The position numbers and the translations under genes are program-made. Of a DNA stretch of 64,000 nucleotides, positions 29-61,780 are shown in pieces; positions within the stretch are counted from its first letter, which is position 1; every line of letters begins with the position of its first letter. The notes beneath the pieces were generated by a model. It had not been told where the DNA came from. It did not search any database and saw nothing but the letters and a program-made list of their open reading frames with translations. Location: NCBI GenBank assembly GCA_031265685.1, contig JAISCI010000028.1, positions 31 through 64,030 on the forward strand, read 5' to 3'. This DNA comes from Clostridiales bacterium (GTDB taxonomy: Bacteria > Bacillota > Clostridia > Lachnospirales > WRAX01).

Positions 29-86
29 GTAGCGGCTGGCGGATCTTAATTATAATGGGTGGTGGAAATTTCAATTAGCAAATACA
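29..86. repeat. Copy 1 of a ~58-bp conserved sequence; copy 2 is at 30629-30686 in the same orientation
   Basis: The two copies share GTAGCGGyTGGCGGATCTTAATTATAATGGGyGGyGGA...TTTCArTTrrCAAATACA, roughly 85 percent identical by eye. Both lie at the 3' end of a minus-strand ORF. Confidence 0.6.
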
Positions 87-446: not shown

Positions 447-1166
447 CAGCCTGTTTTTGACAGATTGGTTGCCGGAATAGTCGAAATAGACTGTATAGTC
501 ATACGCCGCGTCGAACGGCGTTATTGTTCGGATGGAGATTGTTGCTATTGGGGAGCCTCCTTTCGGCGAGCTTGCTCTATGATTTGTTTAACAATTATTC
601 TATATAATTATTCAAGAAATATGTTCTTATTATCTTATTCGGAATAACCCCATTGCGCGGCGTGATTTGCCACGGAGCCTCATCACGCATCATTGCGCGC
701 AGTTTCCAACTACACTCAATGTTATAAAACTGACCTGATCACTCGTATGGCTTCTGCGCAAGAAAAACCATATCTTAAGAAAGACGTACCCAAGCACGAA
801 ATATTGCAAAATGCTCGGAATAGCCTGAATTATTTTATCAATTTCCACTAGTATTATCCCACATATTAGTGTTATCGTTGCCATTGAATGGCCTTGTTTC
901 TGATATGATACACCAAAATATTCCCAACGTCAACAAAAGTCACGCCTTCCCAACAACATACCGCCTGTTCCAATCATTTCCCGCAAACAGCACCAGCACG
1001 CTTTCATTGACGACAAACGTCTGCCCGGTGGCGCAAGAAACGGTGTAGATCGTCCCCTGCATATTGACGGAATATTTGCCCCGCCCAAAACCGCCGTCAC
1101 GCTTCCTTGCCGCGTCACATCGTACGGCAGCGACCGGAGGCGTTCGTTCTATCTTGATCCGCCAAG

Positions 1167-1252
1167 GAATTTTGCGTGAATCATGCAAAATTCATCCAAG
1201 CGAAAATGCTTCGATTCAAGCGAACTTCGCCCAAGTAAACTTCACTTGTTGG
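1167..1252. repeat. Hairpin-module repeat block (X/Y word family)
   Basis: GAATTTTGC-GTGAATCAT-GCAAAATTC is followed by the degenerate words CGAAAATGC, TTCGATTCAA and GCGAACTTC. Confidence 0.7.
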
Positions 1253-1336
1253 CGAGGAGAGCTTCTATAAGAAGCAGGGATACGCGTTCAATGAGGCGGA
1301 TCATCGGGAGTTAAACCGCTTGTTAACGACGGTTGC

Positions 1337-1459
1337 GGATTTTGCTTGGTTCGAAGCATTATCGCGTGACAGAATTTCGCATCGCATTATCGTTTGAACT
1401 ACACGATAATGCTTCGAATAACGCGAAATTCACCCAAGCGATAATGCGATGCAAAATCC
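1337..1459. repeat. Four-stem nested palindrome (X/Y word family)
   Basis: Left arm: GGATTTTGC-10-GCATTATCG-7-GAATTTCGC-3-GCATTATCG. Loop: 11 nt. Right arm: CGATAATGC-10-GCGAAATTC-7-CGATAATGC-3-GCAAAATCC. All four stem pairs are perfectly complementary. Confidence 0.85.
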
Positions 1460-1824
1460 ATAGGCCGGTTCATACTGTCTTATAATGACTGTGAGTTTGT
1501 TCGGGAATTGTACGATGGGTTTAATATGGAGCCTGTCTCGCGGTAAAATAATCTGACAAGCCGGTATGAAAATCGAGAAAATTATAAGGAGTTGATCGTT
1601 TGGAATTACTAATAGTCGATTATTTATAGTAATTATTAGCGTTATTTCGATTCTGTTTGTTGTGTAAAATTGTAACAAATTATATATAAAAACGTTCTAT
1701 GTGTGCAGTGATTTAACGTGCATGTAGAATGTTTTTTCGTTTGTCGGAGAACAAAAAAGTTGGTGTTTTAAGTGGAGATGTTTGAACGTCTTGTTGAACG
1801 CTTACACTGAACGTCAGCCACTTT

Positions 1825-2485: not shown

Positions 2486-3165
2486 GTTGATTCCCCTCTC
2501 CAGACTGTCCCCGCTAAGGTGATTCCGCGTCGCATTACCGAGAAATTCTTCAGCCGAGTTTGAGTTTGAACACAACCGGCTTATTAACCGCGGCCGCCTT
2601 CTTGAGCGAAAGGCTCGCTGTTTGGGGACCCCGGGTTGGATGTCGGCGGAGTCGTCGCCGCGGTGATTTCATCTAAACGCGCCCGCCGGAAGAAACCGCT
2701 CTTCCGCTGAAACAACCGACGCGCTTTCGGACGTATCTCGTCGATTCTATCGGCGACCTCAAACGCAAAACCATCCGTGTGCTCGACCAAGTTTTCCTTG
2801 AATATCAGCGTGTTTTCGGTAAAACGCCGAAAGAGTTACCGCTGCAACTCGGCGGACCCGCCGAGTTCGAGGGCGTTTCCGTCGATGTCTGACGTAATTT
2901 CCGACCAAGCTGAGCCGCCAAAAACTCGATCAAGATGAAGCCCGCGCACTCTACCGCGCCGCTGAATCCTCTTCCAGCTCGTCCCTCTTCTTCTCAAAAT
3001 GTATCTCACACGCCCGCCCGCATTGTTATTATAACATATTTATCCGATTATTTCAAGCTTCGCCTGGCCTAAAGACAATCTTCGCACCCCTCCGGGCTGC
3101 CCCGCCAATCCCGGAGCAGTCCGGCAATCACCGTTTCAATCCGCTTCGGCGAGTAATCGGGCGTC

Positions 3166-3243
3166 AAGAAGATGGTTTGATGAATTTTGCGTGAATCGAA
3201 GCAAAATTCAGATGTTGTCTTCGACAACATCAAACGTCGGTCA
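3166..3243 (-). repeat. G-type palindromic element, short copy G2 (end2 to end1)
   Basis: AAGAAGATGGTTTGATGAATTTTGC-GTGAATCGAA-GCAAAATTCAGATGTTGTCTTCGACAACATCAAACGTCGGTC. This is the reverse complement of the G1 termini with a single X hairpin as core. Confidence 0.8.
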
Positions 3244-3523
3244 AAGGCGTCGCCGTAAAACGTCCTTATGAACAATAACCGACAGCAACCGCAGATTTTA
3301 GCAATACAGACATTCTACAACTTCCGCGGAATCGGATTTTCAGCGGCACGCGTACTTCTTACTCGAATAATCGGCAGCAAAGTTAGCTTAAACCCGCGCT
3401 TTGTTATTCGGGCGGGTGATTTTGGGGTTGACATTTACAAAATTACCTCATTCCGCCGATATTATGACGCTTAGCGGCTATAATTACCGGGGTTTTTGGA
3501 GCGGTTACGGGATAGACATAAAC

Positions 3524-5269: not shown

Positions 5270-5514
5270 TAAACAAAAACGCCGTGTACTCCGAGAGTAC
5301 GCAAGTTTTTGGCTGACGATGAAGAAGATGGCTTGATGAATTTTGCGTGACAGAATTTTGCGTGAATCGAAGCATTATCGTGTGGTTCAAACGATAATGC
5401 GATGCAAAATTCATTCAAGCAAAATTCAGATGTTGTATTCCACAACATCAAACGTCGATCAACGACGGGAAATCAGCCGAAAAGACGCCGATTCCATCTA
5501 TGAATACAGGTTCT
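5270..5514. repeat. F-type element, copy F', carrying a nested G-type insertion
   Basis: It shares AACGCCGyGTACTCmGAGAGTACGCAAGTTTTTGGCTGACG and TCAACGACGGGAAATCAGCCGAAAAGACGyCGATTCCATCTATGAATACAGGTTCT with 61680-61780. Those two halves are separated here by about 143 bp. Confidence 0.8.
5318..5460 (-). repeat. G-type palindromic element, copy G3, inserted inside F'
   Basis: GATGAAGAAGATGGCTTGAT...X-6-X-10-Y loop Y-3-X-6-X...CAGATGTTGTATTCCACAACATCAAACGTCG. It is near-identical to the reverse complement of G1. Confidence 0.8.
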
Positions 5515-5758
5515 GAATAGCTGGTCTCAATTATATTGAGCGGTCGATTTTTCGATTATAACGCGCGCCCGTTTTCAGTGATTACAAGAATTCTTTTGCG
5601 GGGGCGGAACTTCTCGCTGATTTTTTGCGTGCGGGTGTTTTTTTCATTTATATTGCCGCCGGGCTCCGAAAGGCGTTCAAGCGAATTTCCATCACGCGAA
5701 AACATGAAAATCGTGTCCGCGCCTGGGAACGGGATAGGCATAAAATCAAATCCCCGCA

Positions 5759-7746: not shown

Positions 7747-8280
7747 ATGGAAATTAAACTGATTGAGCAAAAGCCGCTGACTACTTTAGCTGTGCGTGAA
7801 ACCGCCTCCGGCGCGGAATTGCCGCGGGTTATCAGCGCGGGCTTCGCGCGGGTGTACGATTATATCGTCAAAACCGGCGCTCAAATCATCGACGCGCCCT
7901 ACGCCGCCTATATAAACATGGCCGGCGACAGCTGGGATATTGAAATCGGATTCCCCGTCGCTCGGGAAACGCCGGAAAACGGTTCGGAAGTTTGCGTGAA
8001 CCAGGCAAACTCCCCAGACACGAACCATCCAGAACAAATGTCAACCTTGATTCCGAAACAGCATGAGATTTTCCCGAGCGTAATCCCGGCGGGACGAGCC
8101 GCCGCCGCGCTTCACAAGGGTTCATACGCCGGTCTGGAAGCGGTTTACGGCGAGCTGTTCAAATGGGTCGGGGATAACGGCCTTAAACAGTCCGGAGCGC
8201 CGTATGACCGCTATCTCAACGACCCGTCGGTTACGCCGGAGGACGAGCTGCTGACTAACGTCGTTATACCGGTAATCTAA
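7747..8280 (+). CDS. GyrI-like small-molecule-binding domain protein with an internal ~26-aa insertion
   Basis: MEIKLIEQKPLTTLAVRE...EIGFPV...IPAGRAAAALHKGSY...YDRYLNDP...VVIPV matches the GyrI-like / AraC effector-binding fold pattern. A GGAG RBS is present. Confidence 0.7.
   Translation: MEIKLIEQKPLTTLAVRETASGAELPRVISAGFARVYDYIVKTGAQIIDAPYAAYINMAGDSWDIEIGFPVARETPENGSEVCVNQANSPDTNHPEQMSTLIPKQHEIFPSVIPAGRAAAALHKGSYAGLEAVYGELFKWVGDNGLKQSGAPYDRYLNDPSVTPEDELLTNVVIPVI
7987..8073. repeat. Hairpin-module sequence embedded in-frame in the GyrI-like CDS
   Basis: 7987-8013 (GAAGTTTGCGTGAACCAGGCAAACTCC) matches 19451-19477 (GAATTTTGCGTGAACCAAGCAAAATTC) at 23 of 27 positions, and the G/C changes fall at paired positions. 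The rest of the insert is degenerate. Confidence 0.6.
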
Positions 8281-8468
8281 TTCCACTTAGAATTTGCGCC
8301 GGATATTTTTTCGAGCTTGCGTGTCCGAATTTTGCTTAGTTCACACAAAATTCTCATCGGAATTTTGCTTGGTTCGCACAAAATTCTCATCGGAATTTTG
8401 CTTGGTTCACGCAAAATTCTTAGGGGCGGCCGAAAATATTCGGCGTCCTTTAGAGTGGAATTAGTATA
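8278..8468 (+). mobile_element. TIR-bounded non-coding element, copy A (MITE-like, no ORF)
   Basis: Left end: (ATC)TAATTCCACTTAGAATTTGCGCCGGATATTTTTT. Right end: CCGAAAATATTCGGCGTCCTTTAGAGTGGAATTAGTAT. Homologous ends occur at 59764-59931 and, inverted, at 18181-18415. It lies between two convergent genes. Confidence 0.75.
8327..8420 (+). repeat. Tandem array of a 33-bp hairpin unit, about 2.9 copies, inside element A
   Basis: The unit GAATTTTGCTTrGTTCrCrCAAAATTCTCATCG starts at 8327, 8360 and 8393. Confidence 0.9.
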
Positions 8469-10376: not shown

Positions 10377-11027
10377 TCAGAAACGCCGCCCCAGCAGCAG
10401 GGGGAACAGCGCCGCGGCGCTCTCGGCCAGATAATCGGGGGACAGCTCGCCGCGGGGGTCGCCGTCGCCGTACAGCGCGCCGATAACCGGCATACCGTTG
10501 GCGCGCGCCGCCTCGACGTCGCCGTAAGAATCCCCGACATATACAGAAACTTTATCGGACAGCTCGTTTTCCATCAGCATCGCCAGAAGCTCGGACTTGC
10601 TGAGGTTCCAGCCGCCGGGGCCGTCCGGGGAGTACCACGCCCGGAAGAACTGGGCCAGCCCCAGCAGGCGTATGAGCTTGTCGGCGGCGCGGAACGCTTT
10701 GTTCGTTACGACATACAGTTCTCGGTTATCGCGCCTCAGCGCCTCGAGCAAATCGACGACGCCCGGATACACCGACGTGTTCTCAAACGCGTTGAGGCTG
10801 ACATAATGCCGGTCAAGCTCGCGCTCAAACACGCCGAATCCCTCGGAGCCGCCGCCAATCTCCCGCCAGATGTCGCGCCTCGGCAGGGCGAGATTGCGCG
10901 CGCAGGCGCGGAACTCCGGAGAGACGCGCCCCCCGGCGCGTGCCGCCGCGTATTCGACCGAACGCCATACGTCCTCGGCGGTATCGGCCAGAGTGCCGTC
11001 GAAATCGAATATAACGGCGTCATACAT
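10377..11027 (-). CDS. HAD-superfamily phosphatase (phosphoglycolate-phosphatase-like)
   Basis: MYDAVIFDFDGTLADT (motif I DxDGT), VVTNK, and GDSYGDVEAA (motif IV). Confidence 0.85.
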   Translation of the reverse strand: MYDAVIFDFDGTLADTAEDVWRSVEYAAARAGGRVSPEFRACARNLALPRRDIWREIGGGSEGFGVFERELDRHYVSLNAFENTSVYPGVVDLLEALRRDNRELYVVTNKAFRAADKLIRLLGLAQFFRAWYSPDGPGGWNLSKSELLAMLMENELSDKVSVYVGDSYGDVEAARANGMPVIGALYGDGDPRGELSPDYLAESAAALFPLLLGRRF

Positions 11028-11044
11028 AAGTCATCCGGCCTCCT

Positions 11045-11157
11045 CATACTAATCCCATTTAGATTTATGGATAAAAATTTTTCAAGCGTCAGCGCGTTCG
11101 CGCGGCTTTAAGCGCGAACTGAAAAATTTTTATCCGTCTTTTGAAATGGGATTAGTA
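11045..11157 (+). mobile_element. TIR-bounded element, sister subfamily, copy D
   Basis: ATACTAATCCCATTTAGATTTATGGATAAAAATTTTT ... AAAAATTTTTATCCGTCTTTTGAAATGGGATTAGTAT. The 15-bp termini are perfect inverted repeats. The right arm supplies the last codons of the EamA ORF. Confidence 0.75.
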
Positions 11158-12089
11158 TTAAGGCAATGGCCGCCCCAGAATACGCCCGCCGTCACCAGCA
11201 GCGAGCCGGCGACCACGGGAAGCGTGATCTTGGCGCCCAGGATAAGCGCCGACGCCAGCACGGAGATTATGGGCAGCATATTCGCGATCGCGACGACAAG
11301 GACGACGTTTCCCCTTCTCATCGACATATTCCAGAAGATCGTCGCGCACAGCGACGATAACAGGATCTGGAACGCCAGCTCTGCGCCGGATTCGATCGGG
11401 TTCAGGATCGAATTGCCTAAGGATTCGCGGCTGAACCCGCGCGAATACAGCTCGCTGCCTGTTTCCGGGCTGAACGTCAGGGCAAGCGCCATAAGCGCCC
11501 CCGCCGCCAGCATAAAATAGCCTACGCCGTCGAAATCCGAGCGGACATGTTCCATATATTTACGCGTCAGTATCGAGAACAGCGCCCACGCCGCGGCGGA
11601 AGCCAGAGCGATCAGCGCGGACGGCAGTATGAAGCCGTCGGAGAGGATGTACGCGGCGTCCTGCCCGTAGCCCCCGCCCCACACGGTTATCGCGGCAGCG
11701 CCCGACGCGCTCAGGGCGAAACTGCCCCAAATCCAGCGGGACGCCTTCTTCTTCAGGACAAGCGGAGTCAGCAGCATCGCGAAGACCGGCCACATGAACT
11801 TTATTACTCCGACGGCCAGAGCTTGCTGGCGCGTCTGCGCGACGGCGGTGGACACGTATGACGAGAGCACGTAAAAGACGTACAGCGCGCCGCAGACAAA
11901 GACGTACCGCCTGGGAAGGGCGCGCATATCCCCCCAGCTCCCGTGACGCAAGCGGGACGCCGCGCAGATCAGCGCGCCGGACAGCAGGTTGACCAGCGCG
12001 CCGGAGGTAAACAGTCCAAGACGTTCCGCCAGCGTGCGGGTAAACGCCCCGCTGACACCCCAAATCACGACGGCCGCCGCGCCCAGCAA
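11130..12089 (-). CDS. EamA/DMT-superfamily transporter
   Basis: 319 aa with about 10 hydrophobic segments and a two-fold EamA-like organisation. The start is TTG. The C-terminal NTNPISKDG is encoded by element D. Confidence 0.7.
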   Translation of the reverse strand: MLGAAAVVIWGVSGAFTRTLAERLGLFTSGALVNLLSGALICAASRLRHGSWGDMRALPRRYVFVCGALYVFYVLSSYVSTAVAQTRQQALAVGVIKFMWPVFAMLLTPLVLKKKASRWIWGSFALSASGAAAITVWGGGYGQDAAYILSDGFILPSALIALASAAAWALFSILTRKYMEHVRSDFDGVGYFMLAAGALMALALTFSPETGSELYSRGFSRESLGNSILNPIESGAELAFQILLSSLCATIFWNMSMRRGNVVLVVAIANMLPIISVLASALILGAKITLPVVAGSLLVTAGVFWGGHCLNTNPISKDG

Positions 12090-12124
12090 TGTATAATTGG
12101 TTTTTATATTTACGCGCCCCCCTT

Positions 12125-12174
12125 AGACCAATCCCATTTTCAAGGACGGATAAAAATCTAAATGGGATTAGTAT
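12125..12174 (-). mobile_element. Minimal copy E of the D-type element, termini only, inverted relative to D
   Basis: AGACCAATCCCATTTTCAAGGACGGATAAAAATCTAAATGGGATTAGTAT equals the reverse complements of the D right arm and D left arm joined at GGATAAAAAT. Confidence 0.7.
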
Positions 12175-13154
12175 CACGGGCAATCGCGCAGGGTCTGGAT
12201 CAGCAGATCCATAAATCCCGGGAAGTCCAGCCGCAGCGCGGCTTCGGCGTTGGGGCGCTCCCCGCGGAAGCCCATGGTCGGGCTTTCGGTTACGTCCGTG
12301 CCCGGCGTTTCGCAGCGCAGATGACGGTAGTCGCAGACGGTCATGCCGCGCGTGAACTCGCCTTTCAGCTCCACGGTTATGTGCATGGGAGCGGCGGTGA
12401 TAAGCTCGGGACGGATCAGCCACGCGACGGCGCAGGCGTCGTGCAGGTTGGCGGCCGGAAGCGAGGCCGCTTCTTTGGACGTACCCAAAAAGAAGTTCAG
12501 CAGATCGACGGCGAACTTGGCCGTTCGGGTCGGAATCTTCGCTATCTCATCGACGCGCTCCCGCGATACGGCGCACTGCCGCGTGAGGTTAACGCCCGAC
12601 ATTTTAATCGGCACGCCGGAGTTAAACACGCGGTACGCGGCCTCCGGATCGACGAAGATATTAAACTCCGCCGCCGGCGTCCAGTTGCCGAAAGTCACCG
12701 AGCCGCCCATGAGACAGATCTCACGTATCCTCCCCGCGATCTCGGGAGCGCGGTTAAGCGCCGCGGCTATATTCGTCAGCGGGCCGGTGGGCACAAGCGT
12801 AACGCCGTCGACGCTTTTCACGGTTTCAACTATAAAGTCCACGGCGTGTTCCTTTTGCGGCGCGGTAACGGGATCGGGCAGCACTGGGCCGTCCAGCCCG
12901 CTTTCCCCGTGGAACTGCGGCGCGGTCACAAGCTCGGCCACCATCGGGCGCGAATGCCCCGCGTACACGGGTATATCGGTCCGGTCTATAACCTCCAGCG
13001 TTTTGAGCGCGTTTTTCGTTACGTTCCCGAGACAGCAATTGCCGCCGATCGTCGTAACGCCCAGCACATCCAGATGGCTCGCGGCGAGTATAATGGCGAA
13101 AGCGTCGTCGTGCCCGGGGTCGCAATCCAGTATTATTTTACGTCTGGCCTCCAT
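12174..13154 (-). CDS. Inosine/uridine-preferring nucleoside hydrolase family protein
   Basis: Translation from ATG 13154 (AGGAG RBS) gives MEARRKIILDCDPGHDDAFAIILA, the N-terminal DxDxxxDD aspartate cluster. Length is about 326 aa. Confidence 0.85.
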   Translation of the reverse strand: MEARRKIILDCDPGHDDAFAIILAASHLDVLGVTTIGGNCCLGNVTKNALKTLEVIDRTDIPVYAGHSRPMVAELVTAPQFHGESGLDGPVLPDPVTAPQKEHAVDFIVETVKSVDGVTLVPTGPLTNIAAALNRAPEIAGRIREICLMGGSVTFGNWTPAAEFNIFVDPEAAYRVFNSGVPIKMSGVNLTRQCAVSRERVDEIAKIPTRTAKFAVDLLNFFLGTSKEAASLPAANLHDACAVAWLIRPELITAAPMHITVELKGEFTRGMTVCDYRHLRCETPGTDVTESPTMGFRGERPNAEAALRLDFPGFMDLLIQTLRDCP

Positions 13155-18180: not shown

Positions 18181-18415
18181 ATACTAATTCCATTCTATAA
18201 GGACGCCAAATATTTTTTCGGTCCGCTCCTGGAATTGTGCATCGCATTATCGAGTGACAGAAGTTTGCGCGAATCGAAGCATTATCGTGTGGTTCAAACG
18301 ATAATGCGATGCAAACTTCGTCCAAGCGATAACGCTTCGAACCAAGCAAAATTCAGAGCCGCGCGGACGCACGCGCTTAAAGAATATCCGGCACAAATCT
18401 GAATGGAATTAGTAT
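18181..18415 (-). mobile_element. TIR-bounded non-coding element, copy C (inverted relative to A and B) with a four-stem X/Y core
   Basis: ATACTAATTCCATTCTATAAGGACGCCAAATATTTTTTCGG ... AAGAATATCCGGCACAAATCTGAATGGAATTAGTAT. The core at 18232-18354 is a nested palindrome. Confidence 0.8.
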
Positions 18416-19153: not shown

Positions 19154-19422
19154 CTCCTTTCCGACTTATAATACAAGTCGAGAAATTATATTATAACTTC
19201 GATATTTGTATTATAAGATAGATTTTTTATTTACGCAATACACGAAACCTACAAACTTTCGAGCGTATTGTTGTGCATATTGCCGCCGCGCGGTTGTCGC
19301 CGTAACCCAGTTGTATTTTCATTTCATAAACTTCGGTAACATCCAAGAAAACGGGCGGTCAGCGGAAATTCAGACTCATAAGCATTAAGGCGCGGCAAGA
19401 AGGCGCGGCAAACGCCGGCCAA

Positions 19423-19512
19423 GAATTTTGCATCGCATTATCGCTTGATGGAATTTTGCGTGAACCAAGCAAAATTCGTCCACGCGATAATGCTTCGAAC
19501 CGCGCAAAATTC
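19423..19512. repeat. Three-stem nested palindrome (X/Y word family)
   Basis: GAATTTTGC-ATC-GCATTATCG-7-GAATTTTGC-GTGAACCAA-GCAAAATTC-7-CGATAATGC-TTCGAACCGC-GCAAAATTC. Confidence 0.85.
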
Positions 19513-19700
19513 CGCAGCCACGGATATTTTGATAAGTGCAAAGAGGATGCGCTTGCGCGGATACGGCGGCGTCTGCCCGGAGGGGCGAAATATTATAACA
19601 TATATCGATCACTAAAGCCATGTATATTTCAATGATTTCATGTACTGAAGGGGCGAAAAGATATAATTTACGTCGCCCCGCCATCCATTGCACATTCCTA

Positions 19701-30628: not shown

Positions 30629-30686
30629 GTAGCGGTTGGCGGATCTTAATTATAATGGGCGGCGGATTTTTCAGTTGACAAATACA
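30629..30686. repeat. Copy 2 of the ~58-bp conserved sequence (see 29-86)
   Basis: GTAGCGGTTGGCGGATCTTAATTATAATGGGCGGCGGATTTTTCAGTTGACAAATACA, located 22 nt beyond the stop codon of the FrhB-like gene. Confidence 0.6.
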
Positions 30687-43584: not shown

Positions 43585-44267
43585 ATCCTGGCCTTCCTCT
43601 CCGATAGTTGGTAAGATCGTATCCTGTTTTTATCTATGGCCTTAGTATACCTCCCGATTTTTACGAATATTAGCGGATTTTGTGTCTAAATTGTAAACAT
43701 TGGGCTCGGATGATTTCTTAATTACAGCGGCGGTGTGGGGAGTGTCAAAATTCAAGCTGCGGTCGTTTGAAAGAAATTGATGAGAGTAAGGGGAAGCCCG
43801 GAGTATTTGCGCAGGCGGGTTTGGCTTGCCGGCTTGCGGTCGGATAGCTTTTGGCTTGGACTTGTACGCGCCTGTGTATTACAATCGAAAAATCGGCCAG
43901 TCAAGTTGTGCGCCAACACAAATGACAGCAAAATAATTATCTATCCTACAAAAACTAATCGTTACAACCCGTTATCCGCCGTTGTTCAGTGTTTAATTAT
44001 GCATTATCAGCGTTTCCCGCCGTTACCGGACCGCTCGTAAAACACGTATTGTCGGCACGTTTTTTATCGCTACAAACGACATTAACCATTCAAAAAGTGT
44101 CTACAAAAACTCGTAGACACTTTCAACCTCATACATTTACCGCCCTCTCAGCCTAGCTCAATTTCCTGTCCGCGATACGGATTACGGCGTCGGAAATCCG
44201 CGGCTGTTCTCACGGTCACTTAAAAGACGCTTCTTTCAATTCTCTTATGGAAATTTCAAACACGCTT

Positions 44268-44373
44268 GAATTTTGCGTGAATTGAAGCATTATCGTGTGG
44301 TTTGAACACGTGAAGCGCCTCAACCCGAGGGCTTACGAACATGACAGAATTTTGCTTGATTCACGCAAAATTC
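44268..44373. repeat. X/Y-word repeat block (partly degenerate)
   Basis: GAATTTTGC-GTGAATTGAA-GCATTATCG-TGTGGTTTGAAC ... GAATTTTGC-TTGATTCAC-GCAAAATTC. Confidence 0.75.
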
Positions 44374-44692: not shown

Positions 44693-44862
44693 AAGGGAAG
44701 AAATACCCGGTAGGCAAGATCGAATCGGCGCTTGATGAGTTTGGTTATTTTGGCAAAGTATTTTCTGGGGCATAAAATGCGACTTTATTTATTTTGCGGG
44801 AGGCAACGAAATGGCGACTAAGAGCGTTATGAAAATCGTTACAGTGCGGAGTGAACGCGCCA

Positions 44863-44952
44863 TGAATTTTCGCGGGTTCGAAGCATTATCGCTTGGACGA
44901 ATTTTGCTTGGATCCGCAAAATTCCATCACGCGATAATGCGATGCGAAAATT
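44863..44952. repeat. Three-stem nested palindrome (X/Y word family)
   Basis: GAATTTTCGC-GGGTTCGAA-GCATTATCG-7-GAATTTTGC-TTGGATCC-GCAAAATTC-7-CGATAATGC-GAT-GCGAAAATTG. Confidence 0.85.
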
Positions 44953-59763: not shown

Positions 59764-59931
59764 ATACTAACGCCACTTAGATTTGCGCCGAATATTTTTT
59801 TGAGCTTGCGTGTCCGCGCGGATCTGAATTTTGCCTGGAAGAATTTTTCTTGATCACGCAACATTCTATCGCGCAAAATTCCAGGCGCGGACCGAAAAAA
59901 TATTCGGCGTCCTTTAGAGTGGAATTAGTAT
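59764..59931 (+). mobile_element. TIR-bounded non-coding element, copy B
   Basis: ATACTAACGCCACTTAGATTTGCGCCGAATATTTTTTTGAGCTTGCGTGTCCG ... GACCGAAAAAATATTCGGCGTCCTTTAGAGTGGAATTAGTAT, with an internal X hairpin at 59826-59881. It lies between two co-directional genes. Confidence 0.8.
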
Positions 59932-60449
59932 CAGATGTCGGCGGGGCGGTAGATCCCGTCGCCGTATACTGCGATTATGGAAGCGTCAACTATATCGCCG
60001 CTGATCGTCAGCGCCGCGTAGGTTGGCGCGGGGAAACCTCTCGGCCGGGACAGGCTGCCCGGATTGACCGTCAGGAGACCGCCGCCGCGCTCGATCACCG
60101 GGAAATGCGTATGACCGAAGAGACAGACGTCCGCGCCGCGCTCCAAGGCGGCGTAATACAGCCGTGTCGTGTCGCCCGCCGATACGCCGTACCGATGTCC
60201 GTGCGTCATAAAAACGACATGCCCGTCCGCCGGGATGGCAAGCCAGTCCCGATACGCCGGATCGCTCCCGTCACAGTTGCCGCGAACGGCGAACACCTCC
60301 GACCCCGGCGCGGCGGACGCCGCCGCCAGCGAATCCGGCGCGCAGTCCCCCAAGTGCAGAATCATATCGAACCCGCCCCGCGCGGCGCGGATTATCTTCA
60401 CCAGCGACGACGTTTCGCGGTGCGTGTCCGATACCACGAGAATTCTCAC
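59931..60449 (-). CDS. YfcE/MJ0936-family metallophosphoesterase
   Basis: The start is GTG. MRILVVSDTHRE...LHLGDC...GNCD...HGH...GHTH. Confidence 0.85.
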   Translation of the reverse strand: MRILVVSDTHRETSSLVKIIRAARGGFDMILHLGDCAPDSLAAASAAPGSEVFAVRGNCDGSDPAYRDWLAIPADGHVVFMTHGHRYGVSAGDTTRLYYAALERGADVCLFGHTHFPVIERGGGLLTVNPGSLSRPRGFPAPTYAALTISGDIVDASIIAVYGDGIYRPADI

Positions 60450-61614: not shown

Positions 61615-61780
61615 AGAACCTGTATTCATTAGTGGAATCGGCGGATTTTCGCGATGATTTCCTGCCGGGCGAGGAAGCGGAAAACGCCGCGTACTCAGAG
61701 AGTACGCAAGTTTTTGGCTGACGGTCAACGACGGGAAATCAGCCGAAAAGACGTCGATTCCATCTATGAATACAGGTTCT
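61615..61780. mobile_element. F-type inverted-repeat element, the uninterrupted copy
   Basis: Left arm AGAACCTGTATTCATTAGTGGAATCGGCGGATTTTCG and right arm CGAAAAGACGTCGATTCCATCTATGAATACAGGTTCT are ~37-nt imperfect inverted repeats. There is an internal 8-bp hairpin, GCGTACTC-AGA-GAGTACGC. The right arm encodes the last 6 codons of the DUF4330 gene. Confidence 0.75.

What the first reader, a model, noticed from the sequence alone, without database searches (positions are those of the whole stretch)
11045..12174. EamA transporter gene bracketed by inverted copies of the D/E element in the middle of an operon
The only gene of the 12-gene operon that is not tightly packed against its neighbours is the EamA/DMT transporter (11130-12089). 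It is flanked by element D (11045-11157) on one side. On the other side lies the minimal, oppositely oriented copy E (12125-12174).

The arrangement is D(L to R) - gene - E(R' to L'), which is the geometry of a composite cassette. The last nine codons of the EamA ORF (NTNPISKDG) and its stop codon are supplied by the right arm of D, so the insertion remodelled the C-terminus.

Either the transporter gene was delivered or captured between two elements, or the two hairpin elements insulate or process this cistron within the polycistronic RNA.
Basis: partly seen in the sequence, partly recalled or inferred. Interest (0 to 1): 0.55.

Follow-up and report, generated by a model that had tools for sequence, protein, structure and literature searches.

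The report
Two small transposon relics flanking a transporter gene
The transporter gene sits between two copies of a small mobile hairpin repeat, but it most likely already belonged to the operon and each copy most likely landed separately at a stop-codon/ribosome-site junction, so this is an ordinary transposon relic and not a delivered gene cassette.

Summary
D (11047-11157) and E (12126-12173) are inverted copies of one repeat family. They bracket the EamA gene, and D supplies its last nine codons and its stop codon.

The family has five copies in the window. Each is AT-rich, non-coding and bounded by terminal inverted repeats. The three solitary copies carry a 3-bp direct duplication of the form TNA, which marks a miniature transposon with an IS5/IS1031-type target.

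The "delivered cassette" reading is not supported. Relatives L002 and L001 have EamA next to the HAD gene, tightly packed, with no elements. L002 also shows the nucleoside hydrolase gene (NucH) just upstream. EamA diverges in step with HAD, and its GC3 matches its neighbours.

Two points keep a composite move alive at about 10%. First, D and E each have mismatched duplications (tca|D|tta, tta|E|tca), yet the outer pair matches and the inner pair matches. Second, two other relatives (L018, L151) join NucH directly to HAD.

Best reading: two independent insertions at stop-codon/ribosome-site junctions. They are co-transcribed as hairpins; D folds at -57 kcal/mol. Any role in RNA processing is untested.

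The rest of the genome could not be reached, so copy number and a matching transposase are unknown.

The parts
11047..11157 (.). Element D: a 111-nt family copy made of the left-end and right-end modules with no internal hairpin modules. GC is 0.36.
   Evidence: (I21). The RNA fold is -57.4 kcal/mol with z = -11. An identical sequence appears in the independent contig L150.
11044..11046 (.). Outer 3-bp flank of D: tca on the + strand, TGA on the coding strand. It lies directly 5' of the HAD ribosome-binding site GGAGG (11039-11043).
   Evidence: It matches the outer flank of E.
11158..11160 (.). Inner 3-bp flank of D: tta on the + strand, TAA on the coding strand, out of frame inside the EamA codons CTT AAT.
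   Evidence: It does not match D's other flank. It matches the inner flank of E.
12126..12173 (.). Element E: a 48-nt internally deleted D-type copy in the opposite orientation. Its left terminus is degenerate (GACCAAT).
   Evidence: The RNA fold is a 13-bp stem at -23.6 kcal/mol with z = -2.4.
12123..12125 (.). Inner 3-bp flank of E: tta on the + strand, TAA on the coding strand. It lies directly 5' of the EamA ribosome-binding site GGGGGG.
   Evidence: L001 has TAA at the homologous position (CGC TAA AGGGG).
12174..12176 (-). Outer 3-bp flank of E: tca on the + strand. On the coding strand it is the TGA stop codon of the nucleoside hydrolase gene.
11130..12089 (-). EamA/DMT transporter gene. 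Its last 8-9 codons and its TAA stop come from D. The true start may lie upstream at ATA 12104.
   Evidence: Pfam EamA at 4.8e-19. Translation. Homologues.
12174..13154 (-). Nucleoside hydrolase gene (NucH), the upstream neighbour of EamA.
   Evidence: Pfam IU_nuc_hydro at 1.4e-97. Its C-terminus ends at the same position as in relatives.
10377..11027 (-). HAD phosphatase gene, the downstream neighbour of EamA. Its ribosome-binding site lies 1-3 nt from the base of the D hairpin.
8276..8466 (.). Family copy at the 3' end of the operon, carrying three tandem 33-nt hairpin modules. Its flanks are taa|..|taa.
18182..18414 (.). Family copy between the GntR regulator gene and the first operon gene. 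Its flanks are tca|..|tca.
59765..59930 (.). Family copy between a Metallophos gene and an iPGM gene. Its flanks are tca|..|tca, and the right flank is the stop codon of the upstream gene.

Best explanation
D and E are two separate insertions of a lineage-specific, non-autonomous miniature transposon (MITE).

**What the family looks like**
- It has terminal inverted repeats beginning TACTAATYCCAYT, conserved left and right end modules, and an optional middle made of small hairpin modules.
- It makes a 3-bp direct duplication of a TNA target. This is the target type of the IS1031 group of the IS5 family, so a transposase of that kind acting in trans is inferred.

**Why copies sit where they do**
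- In this 57% GC genome, TNA sites that tolerate an insertion are mostly stop codons and the few bases before a ribosome-binding site. That is where the copies are found.
- E landed on the stop codon of the nucleoside hydrolase gene, and the duplication regenerated that stop.
- D landed on a T(A/G)A a few codons before the original EamA stop, just ahead of the HAD ribosome-binding site. It replaced a short, unconserved tail with nine element-encoded residues and a TAA stop.

**Status of EamA**
- EamA was already a resident gene of the operon.

**Consequences, all inferred**
- Both elements are co-transcribed with the operon, since no promoter or terminator consensus lies at either.
- They fold into RNA hairpins. 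The long, near-perfect stem of D contains the EamA stop codon and abuts the HAD ribosome-binding site.
- D is therefore expected to damp or couple translation of the downstream genes. It could also act as a 3'-exonuclease barrier or an RNase III site. These would be side effects, not the reason the elements are there.
For: **Family membership and mobility**
- There are five copies in 64 kb with shared end modules.
- Their GC is 0.35-0.44 against 0.57 for the window.
- No copy is found in about 54 kb of relatives' loci.
- The three solitary copies have perfect 3-bp direct flanks (tca/tca, tca/tca, taa/taa). Copies in opposite orientations show the same flanks, so these are target duplications and not part of the inverted repeat.
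- The TNA target with a 3-bp repeat is the stated property of the IS1031 group (PMC12016507).

**EamA is resident**
- L002 has NucH-EamA-HAD, and L001 has EamA-HAD-PRAI2. Both are tightly packed and have no elements.
- EamA identity runs parallel to HAD identity.
- EamA GC3 is like its neighbours.
- With D and one flank copy removed, the window aligns without a break to L001 across the insertion point: CTTAAGG-AGGCCGGAT against GTTAAGGAAAGGGCGGAT.
- L001 has TAA at both homologous target positions.

**C-terminus and RNA**
- Removing D restores a stop after 0-9 codons, and the tails of the homologues are unconserved.
- No promoter, terminator or Rfam family matches at D or E.
Against: - Each of D and E has a mismatched duplication (tca|D|tta and tta|E|tca). 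This reading therefore needs two point changes, for example TAA to TGA in both outer copies. Meanwhile the three solitary copies keep perfect duplications, and D's own ends are otherwise pristine.
- EamA is absent from this junction in L018 and in L151/L152, so the gene has been lost or gained here more than once.
- No matching transposase has been seen. The rest of the genome could not be reached.
- Nothing here measures RNA.
Confidence: 0.7

Rival explanations
1. Composite mobilisation. D and E first inserted at TAA sites on either side of EamA in a donor operon. Later a transposase used the two intact outer ends (D left and E right, identical for 20 nt). It moved the whole 1.13-kb unit into the TGA stop codon of NucH in an operon that had NucH joined directly to HAD. 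The unit carries its own ribosome-binding site, the ORF and an element-supplied stop codon.
For: - The flank pattern needs no mutation under this reading. The outer flanks tca/tca would be the new duplication, and the inner flanks tta/tta would be remnants of the older ones.
- Removing the unit and one tca leaves CCG-TGA-GGAGG-11 nt-ATG, a canonical tight junction.
- NucH-HAD direct junctions exist in L018 and in L151/L152.
- The only degenerate terminus is an inner one, E left.
- MITE pairs are known to mobilise integrons (PMC10969869).
Against: - It would have to recreate exactly the gene order that L002 and L001 have without any element.
- EamA co-diverges with HAD and shows no compositional difference from its neighbours.
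- The sequence just outside D aligns with the EamA-HAD junctions of L001 and L002. It does not align with the NucH-HAD junction of L018.
- Only the middle base of each flank is informative. The matched outer and inner pattern has a chance probability of about 1/16 if that base were random.
- No second copy of the unit and no close EamA homologue elsewhere were found.
Confidence: 0.1
2. Exapted RNA elements. The hairpins are kept by selection because they set apart the membrane-protein cistron within the polycistronic RNA. They could do this by RNase III cleavage, by blocking exonucleases, or by occluding ribosome-binding sites.
For: - D forms a long stem (14 + 16 + 8 bp, -57.4 kcal/mol, z = -11) that holds the EamA stop codon. 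Its base pairs with part of the HAD ribosome-binding site.
- E sits 4 nt upstream of the EamA ribosome-binding site.
- Four of the five copies lie in or at the ends of this one operon.
- Precedents exist for Correia elements with RNase III and for ERIC elements with RNase E (PMC10969869).
Against: - Relatives run the same operon without the elements.
- Copy orientation relative to transcription is not fixed.
- The fold of E is barely better than shuffled sequence (z = -2.4; with flanks z = -1.4).
- The L- and R-specific 8-nt segments are conserved in sequence but are never complementary. This fits protein-binding ends better than a selected RNA structure.
- L017 has unrelated repeats in the same spacers, which suggests the spacers simply tolerate inserts.
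Confidence: 0.15
3. Assembly artefact. A repeat-induced misjoin placed the EamA segment in the operon.
For: Assemblers do break at these repeats. L150 starts at the centre of D and ends inside the copy at 8276-8466.
Against: - The gene order is the same in L002 (NucH-EamA-HAD), and L001 shows the same EamA-HAD adjacency.
- The D-HAD junction in an independent assembly is identical to the window.
- D (111 nt) and E (48 nt) share only about 20-38 nt with each other.
Confidence: 0.02

Closest known systems
Prokaryotic MITEs, in particular Correia elements of Neisseria
   Same: - Both are about 50-235 bp, non-coding and AT-rich, with terminal inverted repeats and a short target duplication.
- Both are dispersed in intergenic DNA and inside operons, are co-transcribed, and fold into long hairpins.
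- Correia-containing transcripts are cut by RNase III (PMC10969869).
   Different: - Correia elements duplicate TA and have a 26-bp inverted repeat of unrelated sequence. Here the duplication is 3 bp (TNA), and a TA model does not restore an EamA stop.
- The host here is an uncultured Clostridia lineage.
- No RNA data exist for this family.
IS1031 group of the IS5 family (the eukaryotic Tourist / PIF-Harbinger MITEs, recalled from memory, have a similar 3-bp TWA duplication)
   Same: Both prefer a TNA target and make an exclusive 3-bp direct repeat (PMC12016507, compared).
   Different: - The one IS1031-group inverted repeat read here (ISLrh, GAACCTGTCTAGTATCT) does not resemble TACTAATYCCAYT.
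- No transposase with matching ends was found, and none lies in the window.
MITE-flanked mobilisation units (MITE pairs flanking class 1 integrons or bla genes in Acinetobacter and others)
   Same: - Two copies of one MITE bracket a cargo.
- A matching short repeat lies outside the pair (PMC10969869).
   Different: - The cargo here is a single operon cistron that relatives carry at the same place without any MITE.
- No second location of the unit is known.
REP/BIME elements and Rickettsia palindromic elements
   Same: - REPs are intercistronic palindromes that can shape mRNA stability and downstream translation (from general knowledge).
- Rickettsia palindromic elements contribute coding sequence to host genes (PMC10969869), as D does for the EamA tail.
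- The mosaic build, end modules plus nested hairpin modules, recalls BIMEs.
   Different: - REPs are 20-40 nt, lack inverted-repeat ends with a target duplication, and depend on RAYT transposases.
- Rickettsia palindromic elements insert in frame inside genes, not at their ends.

Membership tests
Prokaryotic MITE | Small (under about 500 bp) with no coding capacity of its own | tested here: met
   The copies measure 48, 111, 166, 191 and 233 nt. Only short spurious ORFs lie in them.
Prokaryotic MITE | Terminal inverted repeats | tested here: met
   Ten termini share TACTAATYCCAYT plus about 30 more conserved bases.
Prokaryotic MITE | Direct target-site duplication | tested here: met
   - The solitary copies show tca/tca, tca/tca and taa/taa. 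The repeats are direct, not inverted.
- The sample is only three, and only the middle base is independent of the palindrome (chance about 1/64).
- D and E individually have mismatched flanks.
Prokaryotic MITE | Multiple dispersed copies in one genome | tested here: met
   There are five copies in 64 kb. The genome-wide number is unknown.
Prokaryotic MITE | Presence/absence at orthologous sites | tested here: met
   The junctions in L001, L002, L018 and L151 lack any copy. These relatives are distant (36-79% protein identity). No same-species empty site was available.
Prokaryotic MITE | A related autonomous IS with the same ends | not testable with these tools
   No IS-sized pair of termini lies in the window. 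The source genome is not in the searchable collections.
IS5 family, IS1031 group (as parent of the MITE) | TNA target and 3-bp duplication | tested here: met
   One search compared with PMC12016507.
IS5 family, IS1031 group (as parent of the MITE) | Inverted repeats like those of group members, and a DDE transposase | tested here: inconclusive
   The ends are unlike the one inverted repeat read (ISLrh). Other group members and a transposase could not be examined.
Correia-like (TA-duplicating) MITE | TA duplication | tested here: not met
   The flanks are 3-bp TNA. Removing D under a TA model leaves EamA without a stop for more than 50 codons.
REP/BIME | 20-40-nt palindromic units with no inverted-repeat ends and no target duplication | tested here: not met
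   Conserved asymmetric end modules and a 3-bp duplication are present.
Composite transposon / MITE-flanked mobilisation unit | Two copies in inverted orientation with intact outer ends bracket the cargo | tested here: met
   D left and E right are perfect and identical for 20 nt.
Composite transposon / MITE-flanked mobilisation unit | Target duplication flanking the whole unit | tested here: met
   The outer flanks are tca/tca. This is weak, because tca is also the commonest target of the family.
Composite transposon / MITE-flanked mobilisation unit | Cargo absent from the site where the elements are absent | tested here: inconclusive
   - L002 and L001 carry EamA upstream of HAD without elements, and L002 also shows NucH just upstream.
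- L018 and L151/L152 lack EamA here.
- EamA co-diverges with HAD.
Composite transposon / MITE-flanked mobilisation unit | The same unit at another locus | not testable with these tools
   Only three EamA homologues exist in the protein collection, and none is close apart from the source itself.
Known structured RNA (Rfam) or intrinsic terminator | A match to a curated model, or a GC hairpin followed by a U-run | tested here: not met
   Rfam gave nothing relevant. No terminator-like site lies at D or E.

The most novel reading that the evidence does not exclude
D-EamA-E is, or recently was, a MITE-pair composite. It carries a ready-to-express transporter cistron with its own ribosome-binding site, the ORF and an element-supplied stop codon. 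It inserted into the TGA stop codon of the nucleoside hydrolase gene, leaving matched outer flanks (tca/tca) and older inner flanks (tta/tta). If so, small transposon relics could shuttle single cistrons into operons, and this might explain why EamA is present only patchily at this junction among relatives.
Probability: 0.1. Interest if true: 0.55.

Novelty: new member of a known kind. Interest (0 to 1): 0.27.

Why it matters
As it stands, this is a tidy example of a known process in an uncultured Clostridia lineage.
- A TNA-targeting miniature transposon settles on stop-codon/ribosome-site junctions.
- Its target duplication regenerates the stop codon.
- It can rewrite a protein tail and leave large hairpins inside an operon transcript.

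The find matters for annotation. Three gene ends in this window are supplied or touched by these elements, and assemblers break at them.

It would matter more if the flank pattern proves to record a composite move of a single cistron. Mobilisation by MITE pairs is documented mainly for integrons and resistance genes.

Tried and rejected
**Searches that led nowhere**
- The species-representative genomes were scanned with the L-arm pattern. This gave 14 single hits in unrelated taxa, which are chance. The source species is not in that collection.
- The metagenome contigs were scanned with a two-part arm pattern. The scan was therefore wasted and the family's distribution stays unknown. A GC-aware or two-ended pattern would have been better.
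- The viral contig scan gave chance hits only, and BLAST against plasmids found nothing.
- Exact look-ups of the window's EamA and NucH proteins were not on record. Only HAD gave an independent contig.
- Rfam gave no relevant match.

**Models rejected**
- A TA-duplication (Tc1/IS630/Correia-type) model is rejected by the flanks and by the excision test.
- Inversion of EamA by recombination between D and E would give flanks a/rc(b) and rc(a)/b. The observed flanks do not fit this, and the gene has the same orientation as in relatives.
- The idea that TCA belongs to the inverted repeat is rejected, because the repeat is direct and is the same in copies of both orientations.
- A foreign origin for EamA judged by composition is rejected.
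- The short similarity between the NucH tail and the EamA tail (ATTGCC) was judged a coincidence. The EamA tail HCL matches KCF in the L002 homologue.

Full report
**What is there**

The window comes from a MAG labelled Clostridiales bacterium. Its proteins include MDR1209076.1 and MDR1209077.1, and the contig is 73,765 bp.

On the minus strand lies a GntR regulator gene followed by eleven genes:
- four ECF transporter genes (S, T, A and A' components)
- a PRAI-like gene
- a PfkB kinase gene
- a nucleoside hydrolase gene (NucH, 12174-13154)
- an EamA transporter gene (11130-12089)
- a HAD phosphatase gene (10377-11027)
- a second PRAI-like gene
- an Fe-ADH gene

D (11047-11157) lies between EamA and HAD. 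E (12126-12173) lies between NucH and EamA. The EamA reading frame runs into D and ends ...HCLNTNPISKDG-TAA inside it.

One correction applies. The ECF-S to CbiQ spacer is also long, at 109 nt, and has its own unrelated hairpin.

**The repeat family**

- The terminal 14-mer occurs 7 times with up to 2 mismatches, against 0.21 expected.
- A profile of the termini finds exactly ten ends, that is five elements. They are D, E, 8276-8466, 18182-18414 and 59765-59930.
- Aligned, the copies share a left-end module of about 55 nt and a right-end module of about 45 nt. The middle is variable and holds zero to several small hairpin modules.
- D is left plus right with no middle. E is a D-type copy that lacks the central ~65 nt and lies in the opposite orientation.
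- D and E share the CCC variant of the terminus and are each other's closest relatives.
- The elements have 35-44% GC, against 57% for the window.
- Nothing matches Rfam, and no promoter or terminator consensus lies at D or E.
- The profile finds no copy in about 54 kb of related loci.

**Target duplication**

The three solitary copies have perfect 3-bp direct flanks: tca|..|tca, tca|..|tca and taa|..|taa.

The repeat is direct. An extension of the inverted repeat would give TGA on one side and TCA on the other. The flanks are also the same for copies in opposite orientations. They are therefore target duplications of a TNA site.

This is the stated behaviour of the IS1031 group of the IS5 family (PMC12016507).

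A TA model, as for Correia or IS630-type elements, fails. Removing D under that model leaves EamA with no stop for more than 50 codons. Removing the 111-113-nt unit restores a stop within 0-9 codons.

The sites are stop codons or the bases just before a ribosome-binding site:
- E abuts the NucH stop codon.
- The copy at 59765-59930 abuts the stop codon of a Metallophos gene.
- The copy at 8276-8466 supplies the stop codon of a GyrI-like gene.

**Was EamA delivered?**

Relatives were found through the EamA, NucH and HAD proteins.

| Locus | Gene order at the junction | D/E-type elements |
|---|---|---|
| L002 | NucH-EamA-HAD-FeADH, spacers 20 and 13 nt | none |
| L001 | EamA-HAD-PRAI2, overlapping; probably the NucH end about 15 nt upstream | none |
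| L018 | NucH joined directly to HAD | none |
| L151/L152 | NucH joined directly to HAD | L151 not searched with the termini profile; L152 not examined |
| L140 | NucH followed by PfkB | none |
| L017 | NucH followed by a toxin-antitoxin pair | none |

- EamA identity to the window runs parallel to HAD identity. To L001 the figures are 54% and 66%. To L002 they are 36% and 36%.
- EamA GC3 is 0.79, within the 0.71-0.80 range of its neighbours.
- With D and one flank copy removed, the window aligns without a break to L001 across the insertion point. That stretch resembles the EamA-HAD junctions of L001 and L002. It does not resemble the NucH-HAD junction of L018.
- L001 has TAA at both positions where D and E sit in the window.

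Together these results make EamA a resident gene, with the elements inserted on either side of it.

EamA presence at this junction is patchy. On the crude identity ladder it needs two losses or two gains.

**The unexplained point**

D has flanks tca|D|tta, and E has tta|E|tca. Each element alone is mismatched. The outer pair matches and the inner pair matches.

A composite move of D-EamA-E into the TGA stop of NucH would leave exactly this pattern. Removing the unit gives a canonical NucH-TGA-GGAGG-11 nt-ATG junction.

The alternative is two A-to-G changes in the outer copies. One of these is a neutral TAA-to-TGA stop switch. TGA is the commonest stop here, in 20 of 40 long ORFs.

An inversion model does not fit the flanks.

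Only the middle base of each flank carries information. By chance the matched pattern has odds of about 1 in 16.

I weight synteny and co-divergence more heavily than the flanks. The composite reading stays at about 0.1.

**How it works, as inferred**

- D folds as RNA at -57.4 kcal/mol with z = -11. The EamA stop codon lies in its 5' arm. The base of the stem pairs with part of the HAD ribosome-binding site.
- E forms a 13-bp stem 4 nt upstream of the EamA ribosome-binding site, but this fold is weak statistically.
- By analogy with Correia, ERIC and REP elements (PMC10969869), D could be an RNase III site, an exonuclease barrier, or a brake on downstream translation.
- Relatives manage without the elements, and copy orientation is not fixed relative to transcription. 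I therefore treat these effects as by-products.

**Limits**

- The source genome is not in the searchable genome or metagenome collections. My metagenome scan was swamped by AT-rich chance hits.
- Copy number, a cognate transposase and other gene-flanking pairs remain untested.
- An independent Logan contig is 100% identical to the window. It begins at the centre of D and ends inside the copy at 8276-8466. This confirms the sequence and shows that assemblers break at these repeats.

**Verdict**

This is a new member of a known kind, a TNA-duplicating MITE family. The cassette interpretation is not supported but is not excluded. Interest is low to moderate.

Noticed in passing
window 1160-1460, 1820-1980, 3160-3250, 5330-5470, 8324-8422, 19420-19520, 44260-44310, 44860-44950: A second layer of short palindromic modules (GAATTTTGC-N-GCAAAATTC and GCATTATCG-N-CGATAATGC) fills many intergenic spacers. 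They stand alone or are nested inside the larger TACTAAT-ended elements, and include three tandem 33-mers at 8324-8422. The arrangement is a BIME-like mosaic.
   Followed up: partly
window 29-86, 5510-5567, 30629-30686; and 5456-5514 / 61722-61780: Two further dispersed repeats are present. One is a 58-nt unit in three copies at 60-86% identity. The other is a 59-nt pair at 97% identity.
   Followed up: no
L017 4029-4160, 4866-4992, 6130-6347: A relative with 79% NucH identity has unrelated tandem and palindromic repeats in the spacers of the same operon. Operon spacers in this clade seem generally open to repeat insertion.
   Followed up: partly
window 12090-12122 (minus strand): The residues IKT(N/S)YT at the EamA N-terminus are conserved with L001 but lie upstream of the first ATG, GTG or TTG in both. 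The only candidate start is ATA at 12104-12102, with GGGGGG 9 nt upstream. This may be a non-canonical start codon.
   Followed up: partly
window 8273-8280 and 59931-59933: Two more gene ends touch family copies. The GyrI-like gene (7747-8280) reads through the flank and stops at a TAA inside the element terminus. The TGA stop of the Metallophos gene (59931-60449) is the element's target duplication.
   Followed up: yes
window 8276-8466 and 18182-18414: The two large copies bracket the eleven structural genes of the operon, again in inverted orientation. The copy at 18182-18414 fills most of the spacer between the GntR regulator gene and the operon, where a promoter and operator would be expected. 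Relatives have GntR directly upstream without any element.
   Followed up: partly
L150 1-60 and 2640-2666 (Logan SRR14710922): An independent assembly of the same strain breaks at the centre of D and inside the right end of the copy at 8276-8466. The break inside D hints that further D-type copies exist elsewhere in the genome.
   Followed up: partly
L018 10982-11000; L151 2111-2120; L140 924-938; L017 7329-7475: The gene that follows the nucleoside hydrolase differs among relatives: HAD, HAD, PfkB, and a YoeB/RelB pair. The distal half of this operon is evolutionarily fluid.
   Followed up: partly
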